DNA of 64,000 nucleotides from Pelagomonas calceolata. Taxonomy: Eukaryota. The notes below the pieces were generated by a model. It was not told where the DNA came from, made no database searches, and was given only the letters and a program-made list of their open reading frames with translations. The translations under genes and the position numbers were made by a program. The stretch covers positions 3,472,001-3,536,000 of the forward strand of contig CAKKNE010000001.1 of the NCBI GenBank assembly GCA_918797485.1, in the 5' to 3' direction. Positions within the stretch are counted from its first letter, which is position 1; each line of letters starts with the position of its first letter. Shown one piece after another: positions 6,857 through 42,723 of the stretch.

Positions 6857-9800
6857 ATGGACGGCTCGCTGGACTTTAGCGTGAGCGGCGACACGTTCCC
6901 CGGCGGGCGCACGCCGGCCAAGGCGCCTCCGTTGAAGGAGGGCGCGGAGGTCGAGGCGCGCTACGGCGGCGAAAGCGAGTGGTTCCCCGGGACAATAAAA
7001 GCTGTCAATGCCGACGGTTCCTATGATATCGACTATGCGGACGGCGACAAAGAAACGAAGGTCATCGCCGAGTTCGTGCGTATGAAACAACCGCCGAAGA
7101 CGCCTCTGAAGAGGCAGGACACCGAGGACTCGCTCAAGTCGACGCAGAAGCTCAAGCGCGCCGCGTCCGAGGTCGAGGACAAGGAGCGGGCCGACGCGAA
7201 GGGCGCTTCAAGGAACCTCCAGAGTGCTGCCCGGGAATTGGACTCGTCGCAAACTTTGGAGGCGTCCCGAAGCATGCGCTCTGCCGGAGAAGAGCTCCAA
7301 GAACGGAAGAAGCAGGAGGCGCAACGCGAACTGGAGAAGCAGGCTCGCCGGGAACAGGAGCAGGCGCCCGAGGCCATCAAGGAGGCCGCGCGGAAAGTGG
7401 ATGGCGAGAAGCTATCAGCTTCTGTCGCTGATCTGGGCCGCAGTGCATCGAAATACGAGGCGTCAAAGGAGGACCCGCACGCCTGGATGTCGTCTAAAAA
7501 GGCACTACCGGATAAAGTAGAGGCGAGGACCTGGTCCGGCCTCGAGGCGAAGGCAACGCCTGAATTACAAGCAGCGTTACCCTGGGACACGTCAGACATA
7601 CCGACGGGCAACAGGCCCGAGGTCGCTCTCCTAGCTGAACGAAGTTTAAGACGATCTAGAGCACCGGACGCCATCTCGCGGCAGCAGCGCGTGCTGCTCG
7701 CGAGATCCGTCGACTTTTCGGTACCGAAGAAGAAGCTCGGCCCGAAGTTCGCTACTATATCTGCTCATAGATTATCAAAACCGATTGATCGTTCTACGGA
7801 CGTCTACGGAAGAACGGTGAAAGACGTCACGAACGCGGCACAAAAGCGATTGTTCAAATTCGCTTCGAGAGATGATGCGTTGAATTGCACGTTTCGACCT
7901 CGATTAGGCAAGGGCGACCCGCTCGGCGAAGATCAGAAGGAAGATGAGGATAATCCGAACAACTTCATCCAGCGCCAAGATGCGTGGGGCCGCAAAGTCA
8001 GGCAAGACCGAGAGCACAGGAAAGGCGAGAAGGAGTACGGCTATGTCATCGACAAGAAGATGTGCCCTTCCTGCGGGGCGGTCCAGAAGTACGACGAGAT
8101 TGTGAACAAGAGAGACAGGTGTCCCGAATGCGCGGTGGCCTATAAGTCGAGTAGTGCGATCAAGCTGGCGCGCGAACGGGAGTTACTTGGTAGTAACGAT
8201 GCGGAGACGTGCGGCAAATGCGGGGCGCGCCAGACGCTCGAGGAGTTGCTGGACACGCGCGACACGTGTGCCGTCTGTGCGATCGTGTACGAAGAGCTCG
8301 TGATGGGTGGTGGTAGTGAGGAGGAGGAGGAGGAATCCGAGAAGGAATCGGACAAGGAAGATAATCTGGAGGAGCACGTCGGCAAGCGGGTGAAGACGCC
8401 GTCGGGCAAAGTCGGCAAGATTTCTAGAGTTGAAGGTGATTTATGTTATGTCGTTCTGGCCAAGGAAGAAGCTGATGGTGGTGCTGAGGCCAAGGAAGGT
8501 GATGAGAAGCCAAAGAAGAAGGGTTCTGATGATGAGTCCGAGGCGAAGGGGTCGGACGGCGGCTCTCACGACGAGGCGAAGGGCGACGACCCCCTAGCTA
8601 ACGTGAGCCCGACGAAGAAGTCGTCGCGGCGGCGGCGGGAGAAGAGCAATCTCTCGAGCGACGAGGAGAACGATGATGATGATGATGCTTCGGATGGCAA
8701 GGGCGACGCCGAGCAATGGGTGCGCGAGCAGTGGCCGCTCATGGGCCGCAAGGGTAAGGAAACGGGCGGTGCAGAAGAGGGCGAGGACGAGTTCTACTTC
8801 GACGAATTGCAGCTTATCGAGGAGAAGAAGTCCAAGAAGAAGAAGAAGAAGGGCTCGGACGACGAGTACTCCAGTGACGAGGAGGCCAAGCAGGGCGACG
8901 GCTCCGACGCCGAGGCCAAGGCCGACTCTGATGGGGACGGCTCCGAGGCCAAAGAAGATGAGGATTCTGTGAAGAGCAAGAAGAAGGCCAAGAAGAAGAA
9001 GAAGACGAAGAAACGTAAAGTGGCGAAGCGCAAGGGCCCGCGCACGCTGCTCGGGCGCTTGCGGGCGGACGCGCGCGCGCAGATGACCCTTGAGGCGCTG
9101 TTGCTCCGGGAGCGGTCCATCTTACAGGCCGAGGCGGGCTTTTTGACTGTAGAATTAAGGAAGCTGAAGCGGAGGCGCAAGCTCGAGCGCGCGGCGGGGC
9201 GCCGCGCGGCCGGCACCAAGGTGAAAGACGCCATCGACGCCGACGAACGGGCCATCGTCAAGGCGCTGGACGACGAGCGTAAAGCTGCCAAGGCGGCGTC
9301 GGTCTACGAGTCGGACCCGAAGCGGCGCGAGGCGCTGGAGGCGAAGGTGGACGAAGCGAGAGCGCAGCGGAACGCGGCGTTCAAGCACGCCGTGCCGGCG
9401 CTCAAGGAGCGGCTGGACTACAACCAGGCGTGCCTCGATAAGTGTCGGCGGTGGCGGGCGAAGCTCTCGGAGAAGCCCGACGAGCCGCTCCATGAGGAAG
9501 AGGAGGCGAAGAAGGAGGACCCCTTGATGGATAAACTCCGGGAGAAAGGATTGGGCACGTTTAGGGAGCGGTACCAGCGAACCTTGGACGAGACGGAGAC
9601 GCCGGAACTCCTAGACAGGAAGCTGCGGGCCATCGAGCAGTATCGCAAGGAGATGGAGGGGCAGATGCGGCGTAAAAAACTACTCACGCAGAAGGCCCTG
9701 CGCCAGAAGGCCGAGGGCAAGAGTGACGACGAGGAGGACGTGGACCCGCTCGTCGCGCAGCGCGTCGAGGATGAATTAGAAAAACTTGATACGCACATGG

Positions 9801-11581
9801 AGGAGCTGCGCGAGAAGATTAAGGGCGTGCAGGGCGAGATCGAGAGTAGGCGGGGCGACGTGCAGCAGCGGCAGGAGAAGCGGTACAAGACCTACGACAA
9901 GGCACCGATGAAGAAGGTCTATGATCCGGAGACGGGCGAGACCACCGAAGAACCTCTGTTCAACGCGGACGAGGGCGCCTTCGACAACTTCATCGAGCGG
10001 CGCGAGGCGACGCTGCTGAAGGGCGAGACGCTCGCGGCGCTGGAGTTGCGGGAGCAGTCTCTTCGCAGATTCGAGGCGGATCTGAGGAAGCGTACTGCTC
10101 GTAAATTGAGAGCGGAGCGCAAGCGGGAACGCGAGGAGGCGCGGGCTGAGGCGGGTTCAGATGCTGAGGAGGAGGACGAAGATGAAGACGAGTTGGCGGC
10201 GGCCGTCGAGGACGCTTTACAAGATAAGCTCCCGGACATCGAGCAGCGCCTCGCGGACATCGAACAGCGCAAGGAGGAGCTCGCCGAGTTGGAGGCCGAA
10301 AAAGAACACAAGTCGAAGCCCAAGGCGCCCACCAAAAAAGCTTTTGTGGATGGGCGCATCAAGGACGTCCCGCTGTACAACCCGAACAAGAAGGCCTACG
10401 TGGACCCGCCCCAGTCGGGCTACCTGAACTTCATGTCGCGGCAGACCGAGGTCGTGGAACGCGCGACGACGGCCCAGACTCTCAAACTACGGGAGACGGC
10501 GCTCGTACGGCGCGAAAAGGAGATGAAGAAGCGGACTAATCAGAGACGCAACGAGGTCAAGGAGCGGGAGCGCCGCCAAGAACTCGAAGAGACGCGGCGC
10601 GAGCGGCGCGAGGAGCGGCTCGAGAGGGAGGAGGAGAGGAAAGAAAGGTTGCTCGAGATTCATGAAAGGAACAAGGAGAAGCGCGAGGAACGGGCCGAGC
10701 GCGCGAAGGAGGCGCGCGCGCGGAGGAGGGAGGCCTTCCTGCGGGCCGCGGACGCCGACGACGACGGCGCTTCATTGGACGCGATCGAGCAGGAGATCGA
10801 GACGCTCGAGAGAGCGTTGGAAGATCTCCAGGACGAGCGCGAGAAGGTCGAAGAAGATAGAAGAAATGCGGAGGAAGACGAACGGGAGGCCCGGGAAGCG
10901 GCGAGCCCGGTCAAGCACAAGAACAAGTCGAGACCGTCGGACTGGGCCGAATTCCTCGGTAGAAGGGAGGAGGCCATCGAGCGGCGGACGACGCGCGACT
11001 CCCTGGCTTTACGGGAGAAGACGCTGACGACGTATGAATTGGAGATCACGCGGCGGAAGGAGGGCAAGGAAAAAGAAATTCAAGCTAGAGAAAGGCGGCA
11101 GAAAGCCTTGGAACAGCGACGCGAGCGTCTGGAGAGGAAGCGCGAGCACGCCGAAGAATTGCGGGACAAGGTCCTGGCGCGCCAAGAAGATCAGATGAAA
11201 AAACGCGTCGAGAGGGCCGAGCGGCGCGCGGCGGCCATCGAGCGGCGGAAAGAAAGGGACGAGGACTACGACGACGACGGCAGTCTCGCGGATATTCGAG
11301 ATGAGATCGACGAGCTGGACCACGCGCTGGAAGATATAAGGGAAGAACGGGAGAAGGCGCGCGCGACCCGGAAAGCCAAGGTCAAGGAGGAAAGGAGGGT
11401 GGAGGAGGAGATGCGCCGCAAGGAAAAGGCCGCGCAGACTGAAAGAGTGGATGCGCGGCGTCGTCGTAAGGAGGAGAAGAAGAGAAATGAGAGGCGAAGA
11501 CGGCGTCGCGGCCGCGATAGTGATAGTGATAGCGGCAGCGACCGGCGGCGGCGGCGCGACTCGTCTTCCGAGTCAGACTGA
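6857..11581 (+). CDS. Large charged coiled-coil protein with N-terminal Tudor-like domain and two Cys4 zinc ribbons; function unknown
   Basis: Open frame of about 1574 aa from ATG 6857; VEARYGGESEWFPGTIKAVNADGSYDIDYADGDKE; CPSC..CPEC and CGKC..CAVC. Confidence 0.75.
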   Translation: MDGSLDFSVSGDTFPGGRTPAKAPPLKEGAEVEARYGGESEWFPGTIKAVNADGSYDIDYADGDKETKVIAEFVRMKQPPKTPLKRQDTEDSLKSTQKLKRAASEVEDKERADAKGASRNLQSAARELDSSQTLEASRSMRSAGEELQERKKQEAQRELEKQARREQEQAPEAIKEAARKVDGEKLSASVADLGRSASKYEASKEDPHAWMSSKKALPDKVEARTWSGLEAKATPELQAALPWDTSDIPTGNRPEVALLAERSLRRSRAPDAISRQQRVLLARSVDFSVPKKKLGPKFATISAHRLSKPIDRSTDVYGRTVKDVTNAAQKRLFKFASRDDALNCTFRPRLGKGDPLGEDQKEDEDNPNNFIQRQDAWGRKVRQDREHRKGEKEYGYVIDKKMCPSCGAVQKYDEIVNKRDRCPECAVAYKSSSAIKLARERELLGSNDAETCGKCGARQTLEELLDTRDTCAVCAIVYEELVMGGGSEEEEEESEKESDKEDNLEEHVGKRVKTPSGKVGKISRVEGDLCYVVLAKEEADGGAEAKEGDEKPKKKGSDDESEAKGSDGGSHDEAKGDDPLANVSPTKKSSRRRREKSNLSSDEENDDDDDASDGKGDAEQWVREQWPLMGRKGKETGGAEEGEDEFYFDELQLIEEKKSKKKKKKGSDDEYSSDEEAKQGDGSDAEAKADSDGDGSEAKEDEDSVKSKKKAKKKKKTKKRKVAKRKGPRTLLGRLRADARAQMTLEALLLRERSILQAEAGFLTVELRKLKRRRKLERAAGRRAAGTKVKDAIDADERAIVKALDDERKAAKAASVYESDPKRREALEAKVDEARAQRNAAFKHAVPALKERLDYNQACLDKCRRWRAKLSEKPDEPLHEEEEAKKEDPLMDKLREKGLGTFRERYQRTLDETETPELLDRKLRAIEQYRKEMEGQMRRKKLLTQKALRQKAEGKSDDEEDVDPLVAQRVEDELEKLDTHMEELREKIKGVQGEIESRRGDVQQRQEKRYKTYDKAPMKKVYDPETGETTEEPLFNADEGAFDNFIERREATLLKGETLAALELREQSLRRFEADLRKRTARKLRAERKREREEARAEAGSDAEEEDEDEDELAAAVEDALQDKLPDIEQRLADIEQRKEELAELEAEKEHKSKPKAPTKKAFVDGRIKDVPLYNPNKKAYVDPPQSGYLNFMSRQTEVVERATTAQTLKLRETALVRREKEMKKRTNQRRNEVKERERRQELEETRRERREERLEREEERKERLLEIHERNKEKREERAERAKEARARRREAFLRAADADDDGASLDAIEQEIETLERALEDLQDEREKVEEDRRNAEEDEREAREAASPVKHKNKSRPSDWAEFLGRREEAIERRTTRDSLALREKTLTTYELEITRRKEGKEKEIQARERRQKALEQRRERLERKREHAEELRDKVLARQEDQMKKRVERAERRAAAIERRKERDEDYDDDGSLADIRDEIDELDHALEDIREEREKARATRKAKVKEERRVEEEMRRKEKAAQTERVDARRRRKEEKKRNERRRRRRGRDSDSDSGSDRRRRRDSSSESD

Positions 11582-20133: not shown

Positions 20134-21846
20134 ATGGGAGCCGGCGCCTCGGCCCAATTCGGCCCAGCCCTCGACGCGGCGGCGGCCAAGCCCGCCGACG
20201 GCTCCGATCTCAGAGATTTCAACACCGCAAAGGCGGAAGCAGTCCAGCTGCGACGGACGCTCGCGGCGCTGCGGTACCAGGTCAACGCCCAGGGCCAGGG
20301 CGCGACCGCCTGCTTCGAGCACCTCCACGACGGCATGCAGCAGTGGACGCGATACTCGCCCGAACAATCGTGCTTGATCGCCACGGCGCTCGCGGGCAAC
20401 CCCGACGCTATTATACAGCTCCCGGGCCTACCATTTTCGGTAAAATGCGGCCGTAACGCGACGGCCCAAGGCATGCCGGTGGCGCCGGACTCGGGCCTGC
20501 TCCAGGTGAACAACAACTCGGGCGCCTGCCGCATCGTCCGCGTGGCGCTGGGCACGGCGCCGGCCTACGCGCAGAAGACGGCTTCTGGCGCTTTCCAGCC
20601 GCTCACGCCGGCGCAGAACGCGCTCATCGCGTCGGCCGTCGCCTCGGCGCCGCACGGCGGCGCCAAGGCCGTGGGCCCGGGCTTCGAGATCCGCTGGGGT
20701 ACGAATGCTACGACGCCCACGTACCCGCAGCCGCCGCACACGGGTCTGATATTAGTGGGCCCGCAGGGCGGCTCCACGGTGATCCGCGGGCAGTGGGGCC
20801 CGCTGCCCGTCTTCGCCGGAGGCCCGCGCGGGCCGTCCATGCCCCCGGTTTATGGTGGAGGTGGCGGCGCGCCGGCGGCATACGGTGGCGGCGGCCACCC
20901 CTTCGCCGGCGGCGGCGGCCCCGGCTTCGTCGGCCCCGTGCCGGGCCAGCGGCCGGGCGGCGCCGTGCCGGGCCAGGCGCCTGGAGGCCCGGCGCCGGGC
21001 CCGCAGGCGCCGCCGGTCCAGAAGGAGGGGCAGGCGTCGGGCGGCGGCCTGGGCGTCGGTGGGGCTGTGGCAGCGGGCGTCGTCGGCGGCGCCGTCGGCG
21101 CGGGCGTCGTCATGGCGGCGGCCAACCCGGGCGCCATTGTAGACGGCGCTAATGCCGCAAGCCAATGGGCCGGACAGAATATCGCGTCGGACGCGCAAGT
21201 CATCGGCGCTGCGAACGACGTCGCGCAGTGGACGGGCGGCGCCGCGCAGGACGTCGGACAGTGGGGATCGAACGTCGCCGCGCCTGGGATCAACAACGCC
21301 GTATCGGACGTCGGACAATGGGGCTCGAACGTTGCCGCGCCTGGGATCAACAACGCCGTACAGGACGTCGGACAATGGGGCTCGAACGTCGCCGCGCCTG
21401 GGATCAACAACGCCGTATCGGACGTCGGACAATGGGGCTCGAACGTCGCCGCGCCTGGGATCAACAACGCCGTATCGGACGTCGGACAATGGGGCTCGAA
21501 CGTTGCCGCGCCTGGGATCTCAGGGGCCGCAAATGCGGCCGGCGACTGGACCGCGGGCGCCGCGGGCACTGCAGGCGACTGGACGGCGGGCGCGGCGGGC
21601 GACGTCGGACAGTGGACGGCTGGCGCCGCCAACGTTGCCGGCGGTGGTATTGTTAACGCCGCCGACGCGACCGGGGGCGCATTTGCCGTCGCGGGCGACT
21701 GGACCGCAGGCGCTGCAATGGACTCGGGCCAGGCGATCGGCGGCTTCGCCGTCGACGCGGGCCAGGCCATAGGCGGTGTTGGCGGCGATGTCGGCTCGGC
21801 CATCGGCGACGTCGCGGGCGCCATCGGTTCGGCCTTGGGCTTCTGA
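20134..21846 (+). CDS. Myristoylated protein with two WWE-like domains, Gly/Pro linker, hydrophobic segment and Trp-periodic tandem repeats
   Basis: MGAGAS; WTRYSPEQSCLIATAL...QVNNNSGACRIVR plus a second similar unit; repeat tail. Confidence 0.65.
   Translation: MGAGASAQFGPALDAAAAKPADGSDLRDFNTAKAEAVQLRRTLAALRYQVNAQGQGATACFEHLHDGMQQWTRYSPEQSCLIATALAGNPDAIIQLPGLPFSVKCGRNATAQGMPVAPDSGLLQVNNNSGACRIVRVALGTAPAYAQKTASGAFQPLTPAQNALIASAVASAPHGGAKAVGPGFEIRWGTNATTPTYPQPPHTGLILVGPQGGSTVIRGQWGPLPVFAGGPRGPSMPPVYGGGGGAPAAYGGGGHPFAGGGGPGFVGPVPGQRPGGAVPGQAPGGPAPGPQAPPVQKEGQASGGGLGVGGAVAAGVVGGAVGAGVVMAAANPGAIVDGANAASQWAGQNIASDAQVIGAANDVAQWTGGAAQDVGQWGSNVAAPGINNAVSDVGQWGSNVAAPGINNAVQDVGQWGSNVAAPGINNAVSDVGQWGSNVAAPGINNAVSDVGQWGSNVAAPGISGAANAAGDWTAGAAGTAGDWTAGAAGDVGQWTAGAANVAGGGIVNAADATGGAFAVAGDWTAGAAMDSGQAIGGFAVDAGQAIGGVGGDVGSAIGDVAGAIGSALGF
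21250..21519 (+). repeat. 57-bp coding tandem repeat, about 4.7 copies (DVGQWGSNVAAPGINNAVS)
   Basis: Near-identical units start at 21250, 21307, 21364, 21421 and 21478. Confidence 0.95.
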
Positions 21847-35258: not shown

Positions 35259-35308
35259 TACGGTGCTAGGACTAGTAGGCGGAGCCCCTGGAGGGGAGAC
35301 ACCGTGCG
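35259..35308 (+). repeat. Dispersed repeat A, 5' module
   Basis: TACGGTGCTAGGACTAGTAGGCGGAGCCCCT...CACCG. Confidence 0.8.
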
Positions 35309-35331
35309 AGTGATCGACTCGGACACACATA

Positions 35332-36630
35332 TTACTCGGGCGGCGCCACGGCCATCGACTCCGCCGCGTGGACCTTGTGCGTGTACGCGTGGAGGGCCCT
35401 ATATATAGTCCGCTGGTCGTGCGCGTCCTTGACCGGGTGCACGGAGACGGGCCGCGGGCAGAACCGCGCGTCGCTCGTGAACACCTTGGCGAGCTCGTGC
35501 CGCGTCCATTGCACGACGCCCGGCGTGCGGCCGTCGACGACCGGCGCGCCCGCGATGTTCTGCATGCACGGCTGGCAGTCCACGAGCGCGACCTTGTGGA
35601 GGTGCGCACATAATCCCACAGTGGCGTCCTCGGGCTTGTTGATGCAGTGCTTCTTTATGGACCGGTCGCATGGTAATTCCCCGACCCTTCTGATGCAGTC
35701 CTTCGAGACTATCGACTGAAGAGCGTCCCTGGAAAAGCCCTCGAGGCCACCATGTACATAAGTTATTGTCGACTGTTGTGACGTCTTTCGGTCCTGGTAG
35801 TACTCCTTGACCAAATCCTGCCAGCCTGGTCTCTTAAACAACTGGTCCTTGGACCTTGAGTGAATGCGATACATGGCCCAGTCCTCTGGGTTTGGTGATC
35901 GCTGGGGCAGCTCGCCGGCGTCGCCGAAATACAAGTTCGTTTCTCCTCGTAGCACCCTAACCTGGAAGAAACTTAGGAAGCGGTAGAGGTTGTGCGGTTC
36001 GATCACGGTATCAGTGTCCAGCTTGATATACCATTGTTTGTGCGGTAGGATCCGGAGTAGCCCCTTCAATAAAGCAGAGAACTTGTCGAAGTTGTTGAGG
36101 ATGGCCGTGACCTCGTTCGACGCGTCTATCCTTTGGTAGGTCGGGTAGTAGCACTCGAAATGTAATCGAGGGAGGTCCGGTCTACTTGCCTCAAGCTCTT
36201 CAGGCGGTCTTAGTTGGGAAGCAACATCCGTGTCATGGTCGCAGTCGACCAACAACAAAATCTCCAAACTACTACCGGCGTCGGCCATCCACGACTGCCG
36301 CGCTGCTGTTAATAAAGGGACGTCCGACTTGTAGGTCGATGTTAATGATCGAAACATGTAGCCAATGCCCACATCAGAAGGACGCGTGTGGTTCTGGGGC
36401 GGGCCGCTTCGTCTCACCTTCTCGCGCCACGCCGATTGTCTAGGTAGTTTTATGGGACCGCGGGAGACGAGCCGGTCGCAGCTGAACTGCGGTCCTGGTG
36501 ACTCATCGACCAAGTCGCGGAAGGGAATCAGGCCCTTGCTTCGATATGAATCGACTTCTTGTGGGGAGCGGAGGTCCAGCACCTCGTCCTGGGCCCATAC
36601 GGCTGCTATGATTAGAATTGTCTGGCGCAT
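35332..36630 (-). CDS. GT31/fringe-like glycosyltransferase
   Basis: Signal peptide from ATG 36630; WYIKLDTDT (DxD), YVHGG, EDATVGLC, HPVKD. Confidence 0.75.
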   Translation of the reverse strand: MRQTILIIAAVWAQDEVLDLRSPQEVDSYRSKGLIPFRDLVDESPGPQFSCDRLVSRGPIKLPRQSAWREKVRRSGPPQNHTRPSDVGIGYMFRSLTSTYKSDVPLLTAARQSWMADAGSSLEILLLVDCDHDTDVASQLRPPEELEASRPDLPRLHFECYYPTYQRIDASNEVTAILNNFDKFSALLKGLLRILPHKQWYIKLDTDTVIEPHNLYRFLSFFQVRVLRGETNLYFGDAGELPQRSPNPEDWAMYRIHSRSKDQLFKRPGWQDLVKEYYQDRKTSQQSTITYVHGGLEGFSRDALQSIVSKDCIRRVGELPCDRSIKKHCINKPEDATVGLCAHLHKVALVDCQPCMQNIAGAPVVDGRTPGVVQWTRHELAKVFTSDARFCPRPVSVHPVKDAHDQRTIYRALHAYTHKVHAAESMAVAPPE

Positions 36631-36858
36631 CGCAGCGATGGCGTCCGGGAGCTGTGGGTGTTGCTCGTGCTGCGAGGCTGCGCTGGGCGTCCTGTTGGGG
36701 CTGCCCGCTTGTGTTCTTGGCCCGCAACCGGCGCGGACCGTAGGTCGAGCAGCTAGTGTGTCTATCTTGTGTCTAACGCGTCGCACCTGCTGCATATCAT
36801 CAGCCGTGATATAGGCAGCGGCCGCACATAAACGGGCAGCGCGAAATAAATCGCCTCG

Positions 36859-39800
36859 ATGGGCAGCGGGACCTCCTCGGCGCATTTGACACGAGAGGAA
36901 TGCAAGCAGCTTGTGCCCGAGGACAAATGGGACGAGAACTGGGACGAGTTCTACTTCGCGGATGGTAAAACCGTCTCGACCGAGATCGCCGAGCGCGTCT
37001 GGGCCAAATCCGAGCGGTGGGAGGCGTACGTAGCGGCCGGGCACGCGCCCGCGGAGCCGAAGGATGGCGGTGTGGAGGAGCGCGACGGTTCGAAGGCGGA
37101 GGACGCGCCGGTCGAACGCGTCGTCGACGCCCGCGAATCATCGAACGGTGCGGCACGCGGCCGGACCAGAGCTGATGCGGACGCGACGGACGCGCGCGTG
37201 AGACGCGGCAGCGCCAGAGGAAATGCAGCGGCGGACGCGACGACAGACGCGCGCGTGAGAAGAACGAAGGCGCTGTGGCAGAAAGGTGTTGCGAAGATCG
37301 GATGGATTACGCACGCGAGAGCGCGGGCGGCGGCGCTCGAGCGCGCTCGATTGGCGGGCATTTCGGAGCAGCTCTACGAGAAGCTGCACGGCGTCGACCG
37401 CTCCGGCGTGGCGGAGGCGCTGGACTTTTCGGCCATAATTGCGGAGAAGCGCGGGCAGCACCTGCCCGGCACGCGCGAGTGGGTGTTTGATGCAGTAGAA
37501 AAGTGGCGCGTCGACCCGGACGCGGCGCAGCTGTTTTGGTTGGTAGGCGGCGGCGGCACGGGCAAGAGCGTCGCCGCGGCCGAGCTACTGGCGCGACTGC
37601 TCGATAAACAAAACGCAGCCGCGTGGCACTTCTGTAAGCACACCGAGCCAGCGCGGTCGGCGCCAGCGGCGCTGTTGCGGTCTTTAGCGGGCATGCTTTG
37701 CGCGACGGTCGTTGGGTTTGAGGAGGCGCTGCGCGAGGGCGGTGGCGGCGACAACACGACGGATAAGGTCGACGAGCTCTTCCAGGGGCTGATCGTTGAG
37801 CCGCTGGAACGCGTCGAGGAGACACGCGATGCGGACGACGCTCTCGTGTTAATCATAGACGCGCTTGACGAGCTGCCGCGCGATGCTTTGCAGCCCGTAC
37901 TCTCGCTGCTCGCGAATGAACTGAAGACGTTGCCAAGTTGGATCAAGCTCGTCGTGACGAGTCGTGACGAAGCTCAAATTAAAGCGAGACTCTCGTGCTT
38001 CGCGCCGTCGGAGCTGCGCGTCGACGAGGCACGGAACCGACAGGACGTGAGGGCGTACCTGACGGTGCTCGCGAAGGAACACATTGAGCTCGAGGTAACG
38101 ATGGAGTCGCTGCGGCGCGAGGTCGAGGCAAAGTTCCCGGGCTTGAAGAATCTCGACACGTTCGCCGACCTCGAGGACCCGCTGCGCCGGTCGAAGGGCG
38201 CGTACGACGAGGCGGTCCGTGGCGTCGCCGGGATCCACGATCTCGAGAAGTATGAGGAGCGACGTCTCGACTTGATACAAGACGAGACCGACTTCGAGAA
38301 GCTCTACGCCGACGCAGCTCTGGCGCAGACGATCTTGATCGACGCGCTGAAGACGCTCCCTGGCGACATTTCGGATCCGGGCGTGAAAGGGCGTGGATCC
38401 GCGGAGCGTAAGCTCACGGACAAGTACACCGACGAGAATGGTGTGCCACATCCCGAGAAATTCCGGGACCTTGCGCGTGCGACGGTTCTGTTCGAGAGCG
38501 CTACTGACCTTCTGAAGGTGCTGACTGAATTGGACGGCGGCGGCCTCGGGCTGGAGATTGCTCAATTGAAAAACAAATTCGCGAGCCCGACGCCGCTCGG
38601 CTACCGCGATATGAATTTGAACATCAGCGTGCGCCTCGACGACGGCCGAAAACATCTCGCCGAGGTCCAGCTGAATCTCAAGAGCGTCGCGGACGCCAAG
38701 CACATCGCCCACGAGCAGTATGAGGTGATTCGGCTGGCGCTACCGAAGATGTGCGAGGGCACGAGCGTCAAGGCGACTGCGCTTGAGACGTTCATCGCCG
38801 AGCGCCTCAACTCTTCGGCGCTCGACGCGGCTGTCACTTCGCTCGAACGGAAGGCCGGCGGGCTGATGCTCTACGCGCGGCTCATCGCGGAACAGCTCGC
38901 GTCCACGAGCGGCAAGATCGACTTTGCGAGCGTCGGCGCGCTGCCGGCGGGCCTCGACGAGATCTACGCGGAGAACTTTCGGCGTGTATTCGTTGATGAT
39001 GCCTCGTGGCGCGAAGCGCTGCCGCTCGTCGAATTAATCTGCGCTGCTGCAGAGCCGTTGACAATTGACGCTGCGAGTGGTGCGCTGGGCTGGGACCGAG
39101 CGCTGTGCAAGAAGGTCTGTGACAGCGTGTCGCTGCTGTTTCCGCTGCGCGAGGGCGACGTGATTGGTGTGCTACATAAGACGGTGACCGACTGGCTGAC
39201 CGGCGAGGCGCCGTTCGACAAGCGCTCTTCCAAGGACGCGTTCTTTGTTGCGCGGGACGCGGCGCATCGGCGGCTGGCGCGGGCGTGCGCCCGGGCGGTT
39301 CGTGCTGGGGTTCTGGATACGGAGTCGTACTCGAGCGACGCGGCCGCGGATGAGGTGCTGGCTTCATTTGTGGAGGGCGAGGGTGGTCCGACGTCGGATG
39401 CCTATGCGTTGCGTTGGTGTTTGTTTCACATGAAGCGGTCTTGCTCTGAAGGTGAGGCCGTCGCGGTCACCTGCAGTCTCTCGTACGTGCAGAAGCGGGT
39501 CAAGGGCGGCGACATTGTTTCCTTCGTGGCGGACCTGAACGTTCTTCAGGGTCAGGACACGCTGTTGCTGTCCGACTCCTTGGTGTGGTCGCGGACGGCG
39601 CTGTCGCAGGGCGCGGCGCTCGTCGATCAGCTCTGGCAGCGGCTGATGCCGCGCGCCGATGCGGAGTCGTCTCCTGCCGCGCGCCGCCTGGCCGACGATG
39701 CGAAAGGGGTCGCGAGCAAGCTGCCGCTCTCGGCCGTGCGACCGATGGGTCTGACGGCGGCGGGTGGGGCGGAGCGGTGTCGGTTCGAGGTTAGTGCTTA

Positions 39801-42723: not shown

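What the first reader, a model, noticed from the sequence alone, without database searches (positions are those of the whole stretch)
36859..42723. NLR-like receptor with a RelA/SpoT-like (alarmone synthetase-type) domain inserted inside its NACHT module
Seen: MGSGTS myristoylation-type start and a NACHT NTPase (Walker A GGGGTGKS ~37546-37569, Walker B LVLIIDALDE, VTSR). A ~245-aa insert (~38080-38817) then splits NRQDVRAYL from KAGGLMLYARL...LPAGLDEIY, which normally lie close together. The insert core (~38374-38733) carries, in order, KGRGSAERK (KxxxSxxxK), DLAR, KNKF...GYRDMNL, EVQL and HEQY. WD40-like and ankyrin arrays follow. Established: these resemble the Syn1-Syn4 motifs of RelA/SpoT synthetase domains. 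Bacterial toxic SAS enzymes make (pp)pApp or pyrophosphorylate tRNA CCA ends (CapRel is anti-phage), and NACHT-WD40 proteins (fungal HET-D/HET-E) are non-self sensors that usually carry the effector at the N-terminus. Inference: a membrane-anchored algal immune receptor that couples ligand sensing to nucleotide signalling or translation shutdown. The motifs deviate from canonical (no Arg before the first Lys; Asn for His in GYxxxH), so the product is uncertain.
Basis: partly seen in the sequence, partly recalled or inferred. Interest (0 to 1): 0.92.

Follow-up and report, generated by a model that had tools for sequence, protein, structure and literature searches.

The report
Algal NLR with embedded alarmone synthetase
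A marine alga's immune-receptor-like protein carries, inserted in the middle of its nucleotide switch, a domain with the predicted fold and the conserved catalytic residues of bacterial alarmone-making toxins, so it likely makes ppGpp or ppApp when triggered, which would give algae a bacterial-style nucleotide alarm or shutdown switch.

Summary
Confirmed. 36859-42723(+) is one 1954-aa ORF: MGxxxS start, NACHT, WD40 array, ankyrins. A 246-aa block (38080-38817) splits NACHT helical domain 1 (motif spacing 272 aa versus 39 in an insert-less relative). Its model (pLDDT 95) matches only RelA/SpoT synthetases in the top 11 hits (Z 14.4-8.2), and the flanks superpose as one STAND module. The 'deviant' motifs are not decay: they are shared with the Tas1/Apk-RelV exported-alarmone-synthetase clade, and K510, K518, D537, R540, N586, E602 and Q604 are near-invariant in NACHT-embedded homologs from pelagophytes, a haptophyte and a diatom. 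RNA data show low sense expression and no splice-out. The product is open: the closest bacterial matches are RelV-like (p)ppGpp makers (99 bits), ahead of the (p)ppApp maker Tas1 (46 bits); tRNA modification is less likely. Activity, NACHT control and an immune role are inferred, not tested. Fungal NLRs with an N-terminal RelA_SpoT domain are known; I found no description of the internal placement or of this eukaryotic family in 10 literature searches, though related protist proteins sit in a published raw hit list. Verdict: new variant of a known kind.

The parts
36859..42723 (+). Single-exon gene, 1954 aa, NACHT[RSH insert]-WD40-ankyrin
   Evidence: low sense-strand poly-A read cover along the whole ORF
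36859..36876 (+). MGSGTS, N-myristoylation-type start (MGxxxS; consensus recalled)
   Evidence: sequence; MGxxxS in 11 of 36 NACHT-embedded proteins listed, many of the rest being fragments, and in 4 distant ones (P0053, P0058, P0074, P0129)
37414..38079 (+). NACHT nucleotide-binding domain and first HD1 helix: Walker A 37546-37569, Walker B 37843-37872, sensor-1 Arg in VTSR 37954-37965, NRQDVRAYL 38035-38061
   Evidence: Pfam NPHP3_N/NACHT; K236 20/20, D334 27/27, D337 26/27, R369 28/29 in alignment A3
38080..38286 (+). Helical stalk of the insert (aa 408-476), three predicted helices linking HD1 to the enzyme core
   Evidence: AF2 secondary structure; not aligned by the SAS structures
38287..38817 (+). 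RelA/SpoT-type synthetase core, Apk1/RelV/EAS-like (aa 477-653): K510, S514, R517, K518, D537, R540, K571, Y582, D584, N586, E602, Q604, H618
38818..39228 (+). Rest of HD1 (GGLMLYA, LPAGLDEIY) and winged-helix domain with conserved His773
   Evidence: G668 41/42, P696 37/39, Y703 29/30, H773 26/27; superposes with the upstream NBD on STAND structures
39229..39783 (+). Helical domain 2-like linker (aa 791-975)
   Evidence: position; Pfam APAF1_C at the like place in homologs P0055, P0011, P0012; inference
39784..41733 (+). WD40-like array, about 14 units of ~46 aa with a conserved frame and hypervariable positions
   Evidence: (12 anchors found, one span holding two units)
41734..42720 (+). Ankyrin array, present in some paralogs only
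   Evidence: absent or short in P0004-P0008

Best explanation
This is an NLR-like STAND receptor whose NACHT helical domain 1 carries an inserted RelA/SpoT-fold domain with a conserved active site, and ligand binding to the variable WD40/ankyrin array likely flips the NACHT nucleotide switch and so would release that domain to transfer pyrophosphate from ATP to a purine nucleotide, likely draining GTP/ATP and halting or killing the cell. Shown: architecture, insertion point, predicted fold, conserved residues, retention in mRNA, spread over several algal lineages. Inferred from STAND proteins (recalled): ADP/ATP exchange moves NBD-HD1 against the WHD-HD2-sensor arm, so a domain mounted on HD1 would be uncovered or repositioned directly, with no adaptor. 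Inferred from Apk1/EAS enzymes (PMC12691689): fast, unregulated alarmone synthesis in a cytoplasm is toxic whichever purine is used. Product odds given activity: (p)ppGpp about 0.5, (p)ppApp about 0.3, both or other about 0.2. The myristoyl-type start would hold it at a membrane.
For: Fold: top 11 VIA hits are all RSH synthetases (YwaC Z 14.4, rmsd 4.6, 155 aligned; Tas1 Z 13.2, rmsd 4.1, 152 aligned, highest identity 29%), next fold Z 6.5; Foldseek agrees. Residues in 52 NACHT-embedded rows (near-duplicates included; n = rows covering the column): K510 42/44, K518 43/43, D537 43/45, R540 45/45, K571 48/48, Y582 41/44, D584 44/44, N586 44/45, E602 44/44, Q604 42/43; R540, N586, E602, Q604 align to Apk1 R330, N370, E382, Q384 (numbering offset 21). 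S514 for the family Arg is offset by R517: 12 of 16 rows without R514 have R517, 0 of 121 with R514 do, in several separate places on the tree. NACHT motifs near-invariant and the flanks superpose as one module: ZAR1 234 residues, 5.0 A, over model 9-529 against chain 150-397; MalT 326; Apaf-1 316. 12 of 13 NACHT relatives found carry the insert. Immune-like traits: many paralogs, WD40 54-69% identical where NBD is 79-91%, hypervariable repeat positions. Bacterial neighbours are conflict effectors: eCIS_core, MuF, PT-HINT, VgrG-type fusions.
Against: No activity, ligand, phenotype or infection-induced expression was measured. The query insert has no Pfam RelA_SpoT hit (2 of 5 profile members do). 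It lacks both the canonical Syn1 Arg and the family Arg at 514; the R517 rescue is a covariation only. The same domain is fused to EF-hands, G-alpha, a Ras/Roc GTPase, an ion channel and a UBC domain, which fits general signalling as well as defence. Nothing here shows that the NACHT state controls the active site; model coordinates could not be inspected. Acceptor specificity cannot be read from these motifs, since Apk1, VpEAS and SaEAS differ in product.
Confidence: 0.58

Rival explanations
1. Active alarmone synthetase, but a low-rate second-messenger source for stress or developmental signalling (cytosolic or towards the plastid), not a suicide effector.
For: The domain also occurs with EF-hands, inside the helical domain of a choanoflagellate G-alpha (P0159, Didymoeca), after a Ras/Roc GTPase and with an ion channel; basal transcription in culture; stand-alone RSH hydrolases (divSpo) are listed for Aureococcus and Emiliania (PMC3153485), which would allow turnover.
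Against: Paralog expansion, hypervariable sensor repeats and two enzyme types in one frame are typical of non-self receptors; the bacterial relatives are secreted effectors.
Confidence: 0.22
2. The insert is a non-catalytic integrated decoy or nucleotide sensor that binds an alarmone or a pathogen protein and switches the NACHT on.
For: No N-terminal effector is needed for a sensor NLR; two insert types 61-68% alike sit in flanks 81-88% alike, as expected of a diversifying bait; Syn1 differs from canonical.
Against: Mg-binding D537 and E602 and the Lys/Arg set are near-invariant over proteins about 35% identical; within a type the insert is the best-conserved part (90-93%); no other effector domain is evident in this protein.
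Confidence: 0.1
3. A CapRel/FaRel2-like enzyme that pyrophosphorylates tRNA CCA ends and stops translation.
For: CapRel is a fold match (Z 12.1); tRNA would be a usable target in a eukaryotic cytosol; CapRel is itself a fused sensor-toxin.
Against: Only 14% identity to CapRel and Z 5.6 to FaRel2; neither appears in the profile searches of PDB; FaRel2 keeps the canonical R64 that this domain lacks; the motif set follows the nucleotide-accepting Apk1/RelV clade.
Confidence: 0.07
4. The insert is an intron or an assembly artefact and is not part of the protein.
For: Read depth over the insert is low (0.2-6x per bin) and many reads there come from paralogs.
Against: Open frame throughout; GC3 0.80 as in the flanks and no [CT]AG acceptor in the last 130 bases scanned; no listed joint skips it in 8 runs; transcript-derived homologs P0006 and P0112 keep it; same position in Prymnesium and a diatom.
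Confidence: 0.02

Closest known systems
Fungal RelA_SpoT-NACHT-WD40 NLRs (Dyrka et al. 2014, PMC4986451, passages read)
   Same: NACHT-WD40 receptor fused to an RSH synthetase domain proposed as effector
   Different: There the domain is N-terminal and matches PF04607; here it is inside HD1, has no Pfam hit, and is in algae. Whether the fungal domain belongs to the same RSH clade was not tested.
Exported alarmone synthetases VpEAS/RelV, SaEAS, AaEAS (PMC12691689, sections read)
   Same: KxxxRxxxK, DLAR, KNRF, GYRDxN, EVQ and H..Y motif set; Vibrio, Ferrimonas and Photobacterium signal-peptide proteins score 87-108 bits on the algal-only profile
   Different: No signal peptide or export domain; embedded in a host receptor; S514/R517 variant. 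That L006 is RelV is inferred from organism, size and signal peptide, not from an annotation.
Tas1/Apk1 and Apk2 (p)ppApp synthetase toxins (PDB 6ox6; PMC10083569)
   Same: Best PDB sequence match (E 3e-11 and 2e-17), 29% structural identity, R330/N370/E382/Q384 equivalents
   Different: Injected interbacterial or phage toxins held by an immunity protein; lower profile score (46 bits) than RelV-like proteins
CapRel SJ46 fused toxSAS (PDB 7ztb)
   Same: Sensor and RSH-fold effector in one chain, activated by a foreign protein
   Different: Zinc-finger-like antitoxin instead of a STAND switch; tRNA substrate; 14% identity
HET-E/HET-D and Apaf-1-type STAND-WD40 receptors (recalled; Apaf-1 and ZAR1 matched)
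   Same: NBD-HD1-WHD-HD2-WD40 order, intact P-loop, variable WD40 repeats
   Different: Effector or adaptor is N-terminal there; here the enzyme is mounted within the switch and ankyrins may follow the WD40 array

Membership tests
NACHT/STAND NTPase | Walker A, Walker B and sensor-1 Arg | tested here: met
NACHT/STAND NTPase | HD1 and winged-helix domain packed on the NBD, with WHD His | tested here: met
   In the model (pLDDT 91, pTM 0.81) both flanks superpose on ZAR1, MalT and Apaf-1; H773 26/27. Prediction, rmsd 5-8 A.
NACHT/STAND NTPase | C-terminal repeat sensor array | tested here: met
   WD40 and ankyrin
NLR immune receptor | Ligand-triggered nucleotide exchange, oligomerisation and defence output | not testable with these tools
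   needs biochemistry and infection experiments
RSH synthetase superfamily | SYNTH fold | tested here: met
RSH synthetase superfamily | Mg-binding Asp and Glu, adenine-stacking Arg, G-loop Tyr, basic Syn1 helix | tested here: met
   D537, E602, R540, Y582, K510/K518 (roles from FaRel2 text)
RSH synthetase superfamily | Pfam PF04607 at its cut-off | tested here: not met
   no hit for this insert; 2 of 5 members of A1 hit, best E 2.4e-6
RSH synthetase superfamily | ATP-dependent 3'-pyrophosphoryl transfer | not testable with these tools
   assay needed
Apk1-like / EAS clade | Active-site set R330, N370, E382, Q384 of Apk1 | tested here: met
   R540, N586, E602, Q604; the K353 equivalent is unclear, the alignment being gapped there
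Apk1-like / EAS clade | Signal peptide or secretion-system export domain | tested here: not met
   none in Pfam scan; N-terminus is MGxxxS and hydrophilic. It works like an EAS enzyme but is not an exported one.
Apk ((p)ppApp-specific) | Adenylate acceptor specificity | tested here: inconclusive
   RelV-like 99 bits versus Tas1 46 bits on the same profile; motifs shared by enzymes with different products
Housekeeping SAS (RelP/RelQ) | Syn1 Arg before the first Lys; Syn3 GYRSxH | tested here: not met
   G508 and N586
tRNA-targeting toxSAS (CapRel/FaRel2) | N-terminal basic tRNA anchor and reduced acceptor-site positive patch | not tested
   features from PMC11782079; model coordinates not available to inspect
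Fungal RelA_SpoT NLR | RSH domain N-terminal to the NACHT | tested here: not met
   domain lies inside HD1

The most novel reading that the evidence does not exclude
Protists run a cytosolic alarmone system of their own: one eukaryotic family of Apk/RelV-like synthetases, domesticated from bacterial secreted toxins, has been mounted inside the helical subdomains of NTPase switches (NACHT HD1 in pelagophytes, haptophytes and diatoms; the G-alpha helical domain in a choanoflagellate). The algal NLR clade uses it as a self-contained cell-death or dormancy effector against viruses or bacteria, with exchangeable enzyme cassettes of different product.
Probability: 0.35. Interest if true: 0.92.

Novelty: new variant of a known kind. 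Interest (0 to 1): 0.75.

Why it matters
The eukaryotic alarmone work I read treats (p)ppGpp as a plastid matter, and little is known of how unicellular phytoplankton sense and stop infection. This gene names a specific enzyme, catalytic residues and a switch that can be assayed directly. If active, it would show NLR-triggered ppGpp/ppApp synthesis in a eukaryotic cytosol and a receptor design in which the effector rides inside the STAND switch instead of at the N-terminus. The family is spread over abundant ocean algae, so it could bear on virus-driven bloom mortality.

Tried and rejected
No whole genome was held, so paralogs, hydrolases and helper genes could not be counted. Pfam, NCBIfam and PADLOC gave no family for the insert itself. 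Insert homodimer prediction with ATP/Mg: no verdict, score 0.00; not used as evidence. No relative among IMG/VR contigs with two peptide patterns or among phage records; 2 weak plasmid-collection matches; these are low-sensitivity searches. Cassette swapping between paralogs is not proven: the flank tree is unresolved and the AU test does not reject S-type monophyly (p 0.157); homogenisation of the flanks would look the same. The careful domain tree did not finish; one search is the quick tree (123 of 171 rows, the rest too gappy), and most rows have no known taxon. My first reading, (p)ppApp by Tas1 likeness, was lowered. A joint 35284-37569 carries 23 foreign letters and starts in the neighbouring gene's end; taken as a strain difference with a chance short match. 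One single-contig joint 38208-38277 (GA..AT, run X9) lies inside the insert, is non-canonical and was set aside. The Tas1 structure paper is not held. No earlier findings of this scan matched.

Full report
Observation. Pfam finds an NPHP3_N/NACHT domain at aa 204-378, WD40 and ankyrin arrays, and nothing for the insert. The closest named homologs are from Pelagomonas calceolata, so the window is likely a pelagophyte. Neighbours are ordinary housekeeping genes and no second copy lies in the window.

The insertion is real and sits in helical domain 1. The first HD1 helix motif and the next HD1 motif are 272 aa apart, against 39 aa in the only insert-less relative found, a TIR-NACHT-WD40 protein at 33% identity. 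An AF2 model of aa 181-814 (62 sequences, pLDDT 91, pTM 0.81) superposes on STAND and AAA+ structures using residues on both sides of the insert: ZAR1 234 residues at 5.0 A over model 9-529 against chain 150-397, MalT 326 residues at 7.7 A, Apaf-1 316 at 8.0 A. Walker A, Walker B, sensor-1 and WHD-His positions are near-invariant in homologs.

It is not spliced out. In four poly-A runs of one sample of the same organism (6-12% of each run read) the whole ORF has low sense-strand cover, 0.2-6x per bin over the insert, much of it from paralogs, and none of the listed joints skips the insert. A contig of run X7 (RNA status a guess) crosses the 5' border with no difference. Transcript-derived homologs keep the insert: P0006 (MMETSP, complete, 90% identical) and P0112 (diatom Proboscia alata). 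GC3 of the insert equals that of the flanks.

The insert has an RSH synthetase fold. Alone it gave only a weak PDB hit to YwaC (E 0.076). A profile of five algal inserts hits Tas1 at E 3e-11 and YwaC at 2e-9; a 76-sequence profile hits Tas1 at 2e-17 and SaEAS at 0.003. The insert model (pLDDT 95) has RSH synthetases as the top 11 of 48,161 chains, Z 14.4-8.2, with Tas1 the most identical (29%); the next fold scores 6.5 (Foldseek agrees). The ESM Atlas's nearest clusters are unnamed, mostly eukaryotic, plus one with RelA_SpoT on 34% of members.

The active site looks intact. Among 52 NACHT-embedded rows (near-duplicates included) K510 42/44, K518 43/43, D537 43/45, R540 45/45, K571 48/48, Y582 41/44, D584 44/44, N586 44/45, E602 44/44 and Q604 42/43 are kept. 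R540, N586, E602 and Q604 align with Apk1 R330, N370, E382 and Q384, named as ATP-binding in PMC12691689 (the paper prints Q382). This protein has Ser at 514 where most of the family has Arg, but it has Arg at 517. After dropping 7 near-copies of the query, 12 of 16 rows without R514 have R517 and 0 of 121 with R514 do, in several separate places of the tree (weak support). That is what one expects if an Arg is needed on that helix face.

The product is open. On the algal-only profile, signal-peptide proteins of Ferrimonas, Photobacterium and Vibrio score 87-108 bits, Tas1 46 and YwaC 41. The Vibrio cluster (VpEAS, RelV) makes pppGpp, SaEAS makes both alarmones and Apk1 makes (p)ppApp; all are toxic in a cytoplasm, attributed to nucleotide depletion (PMC12691689). 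CapRel and FaRel2 match by fold only.

Distribution. The profile finds 5086 cluster representatives at E<=0.001; of the 150 best, 13 have both NACHT flanks abutting the domain, 29 one flank (mostly fragments) and 108 neither. Named NACHT-embedded members: Pelagomonas calceolata, Prymnesium parvum, Proboscia alata. 12 of the 13 relatives found with the NBD as query carry the insert. Other fusions among 63 proteins scanned: EF-hands, LRR, ankyrin, UBC, ion channel, Ras/Roc and a choanoflagellate G-alpha, where the domain again interrupts a helical subdomain. Bacterial-type hits carry eCIS_core, MuF, PT-HINT and VgrG-type domains. The quick tree (123 of 171 rows) separates 86 rows holding all NACHT-embedded and the eukaryote-type fusions from 37 rows holding the toxin architectures (SH-aLRT 97); taxa are known for few rows, so direction of transfer is not shown.

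Immune-like evolution. Many divergent paralog contigs lie on the NACHT part. Against eight close homologs the NBD is 79-91% identical and the WD40 array 54-69%, with a conserved repeat frame and a few hypervariable positions (63 units). Two insert types (S..RK and R..EK) are 86-93% alike within and 61-68% between types, while the flanks are equally alike within and between (NBD 88-90 versus 88). Cassette exchange is plausible but not proven (AU p 0.157).

Mechanism. Shown: architecture, fold prediction, residue conservation, transcription. Inferred: the sensor array binds a foreign ligand, the NACHT exchanges nucleotide and opens (STAND behaviour, recalled), the HD1-mounted synthetase is freed, and purine nucleotides are pyrophosphorylated fast enough to drain GTP or ATP (0.58). 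Rivals: low-rate signalling (0.22), decoy or sensor (0.10), tRNA modification (0.07), artefact (0.02).

Comparison with print. Fungal NLRs with an N-terminal RelA_SpoT domain are reported (PMC4986451, passages; PMC12258605 and bioRxiv 2022.03.16.484565, passages). Unplaced SAS in fungi, Dictyostelium and diatoms are noted in PMC3153485 (passages); the passages of PMC6881373 I saw cover long diatom RSHs. RelA-like toxin domains are described in PMC3482391 (passages). The raw Tas1 hit list of PMC10083569 (supplement file 1, cut when stored) holds Chrysochromulina WD40/Het-e, Aureococcus AAA_16 and Reticulomyxa NACHT rows, but the parts of the text I read (2 of 7, plus a search for 'eukaryot') do not discuss them. 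PMC12691689 (part 2, sections 9 and 11 in part, passages) treats bacteria only and its six supplements hold none of six terms tried. PMC11782079, PMC10802352 and bioRxiv 2022.07.19.500537 were seen as passages. Ten searches found no description of an RSH domain inside a NACHT or of this algal family. Subscription journals and bioRxiv supplements are not covered.

Verdict. A real, conserved and testable architecture; a new variant of the known RSH-NLR fusion, with an unusual internal placement and a toxin-clade enzyme. Interest 0.75.

Noticed in passing
P0159 (Didymoeca costata), aa 193-338 and flanks: G-alpha subunit with the same synthetase domain, catalytic residues kept, inserted in its helical domain: a second case of the enzyme mounted inside an NTPase switch.
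   Followed up: partly
P0071, P0072, P0087, P0095: Non-NACHT proteins whose synthetase domain is flanked by what look like leftover HD1 helices, followed by HEAT-like, ankyrin or LRR regions; possibly derived from NACHT-embedded copies (by eye).
   Followed up: no
P0011, P0012, P0050 (Prymnesium parvum): NACHT[RSH] proteins with what look like a ubiquitin-like and an endonuclease/exonuclease/phosphatase-like domain at the N-terminus (source name and motifs by eye): possibly two enzymes in one receptor.
   Followed up: no
P0001/3/4/5/6 versus P0007/8/9; intermediates P0024, P0026, P0028: Two insert types differ around the Syn1 and Syn2 motifs and by a 5-residue loop, in equally similar NACHT frames; they may differ in product.
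   Followed up: partly
window 35332-36720 (-): Fringe-like glycosyltransferase gene (weak Pfam hit, E 0.016) head-to-head with the NLR gene; its transcripts end near 36713-36717, about 140 bases from the NLR ATG.
   Followed up: partly
P0146, P0163 (Amoebophrya), P0122, P0140, P0151: Synthetase domain fused to an ion channel or to EF-hands, many with GW in place of GY at the G-loop.
   Followed up: no
window 40997-41042: Short (SD)n microsatellite-like insertion in a WD40 loop; reads are cut there.
   Followed up: no
window 6857-11581 (+): 1574-aa highly charged protein without a Pfam hit at 1e-5, with a Tudor-like start and CxxC pairs by eye; it causes the AT-skew peak.
   Followed up: no
window 20134-21846 (+): 570-aa Gly/Ala-rich protein with an MGxxxS start and tandem 20-aa repeats, no Pfam hit.
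   Followed up: no
L001, L007, L008 (Photobacterium): Two RelV-like ORFs lie side by side in each of these loci.
   Followed up: no
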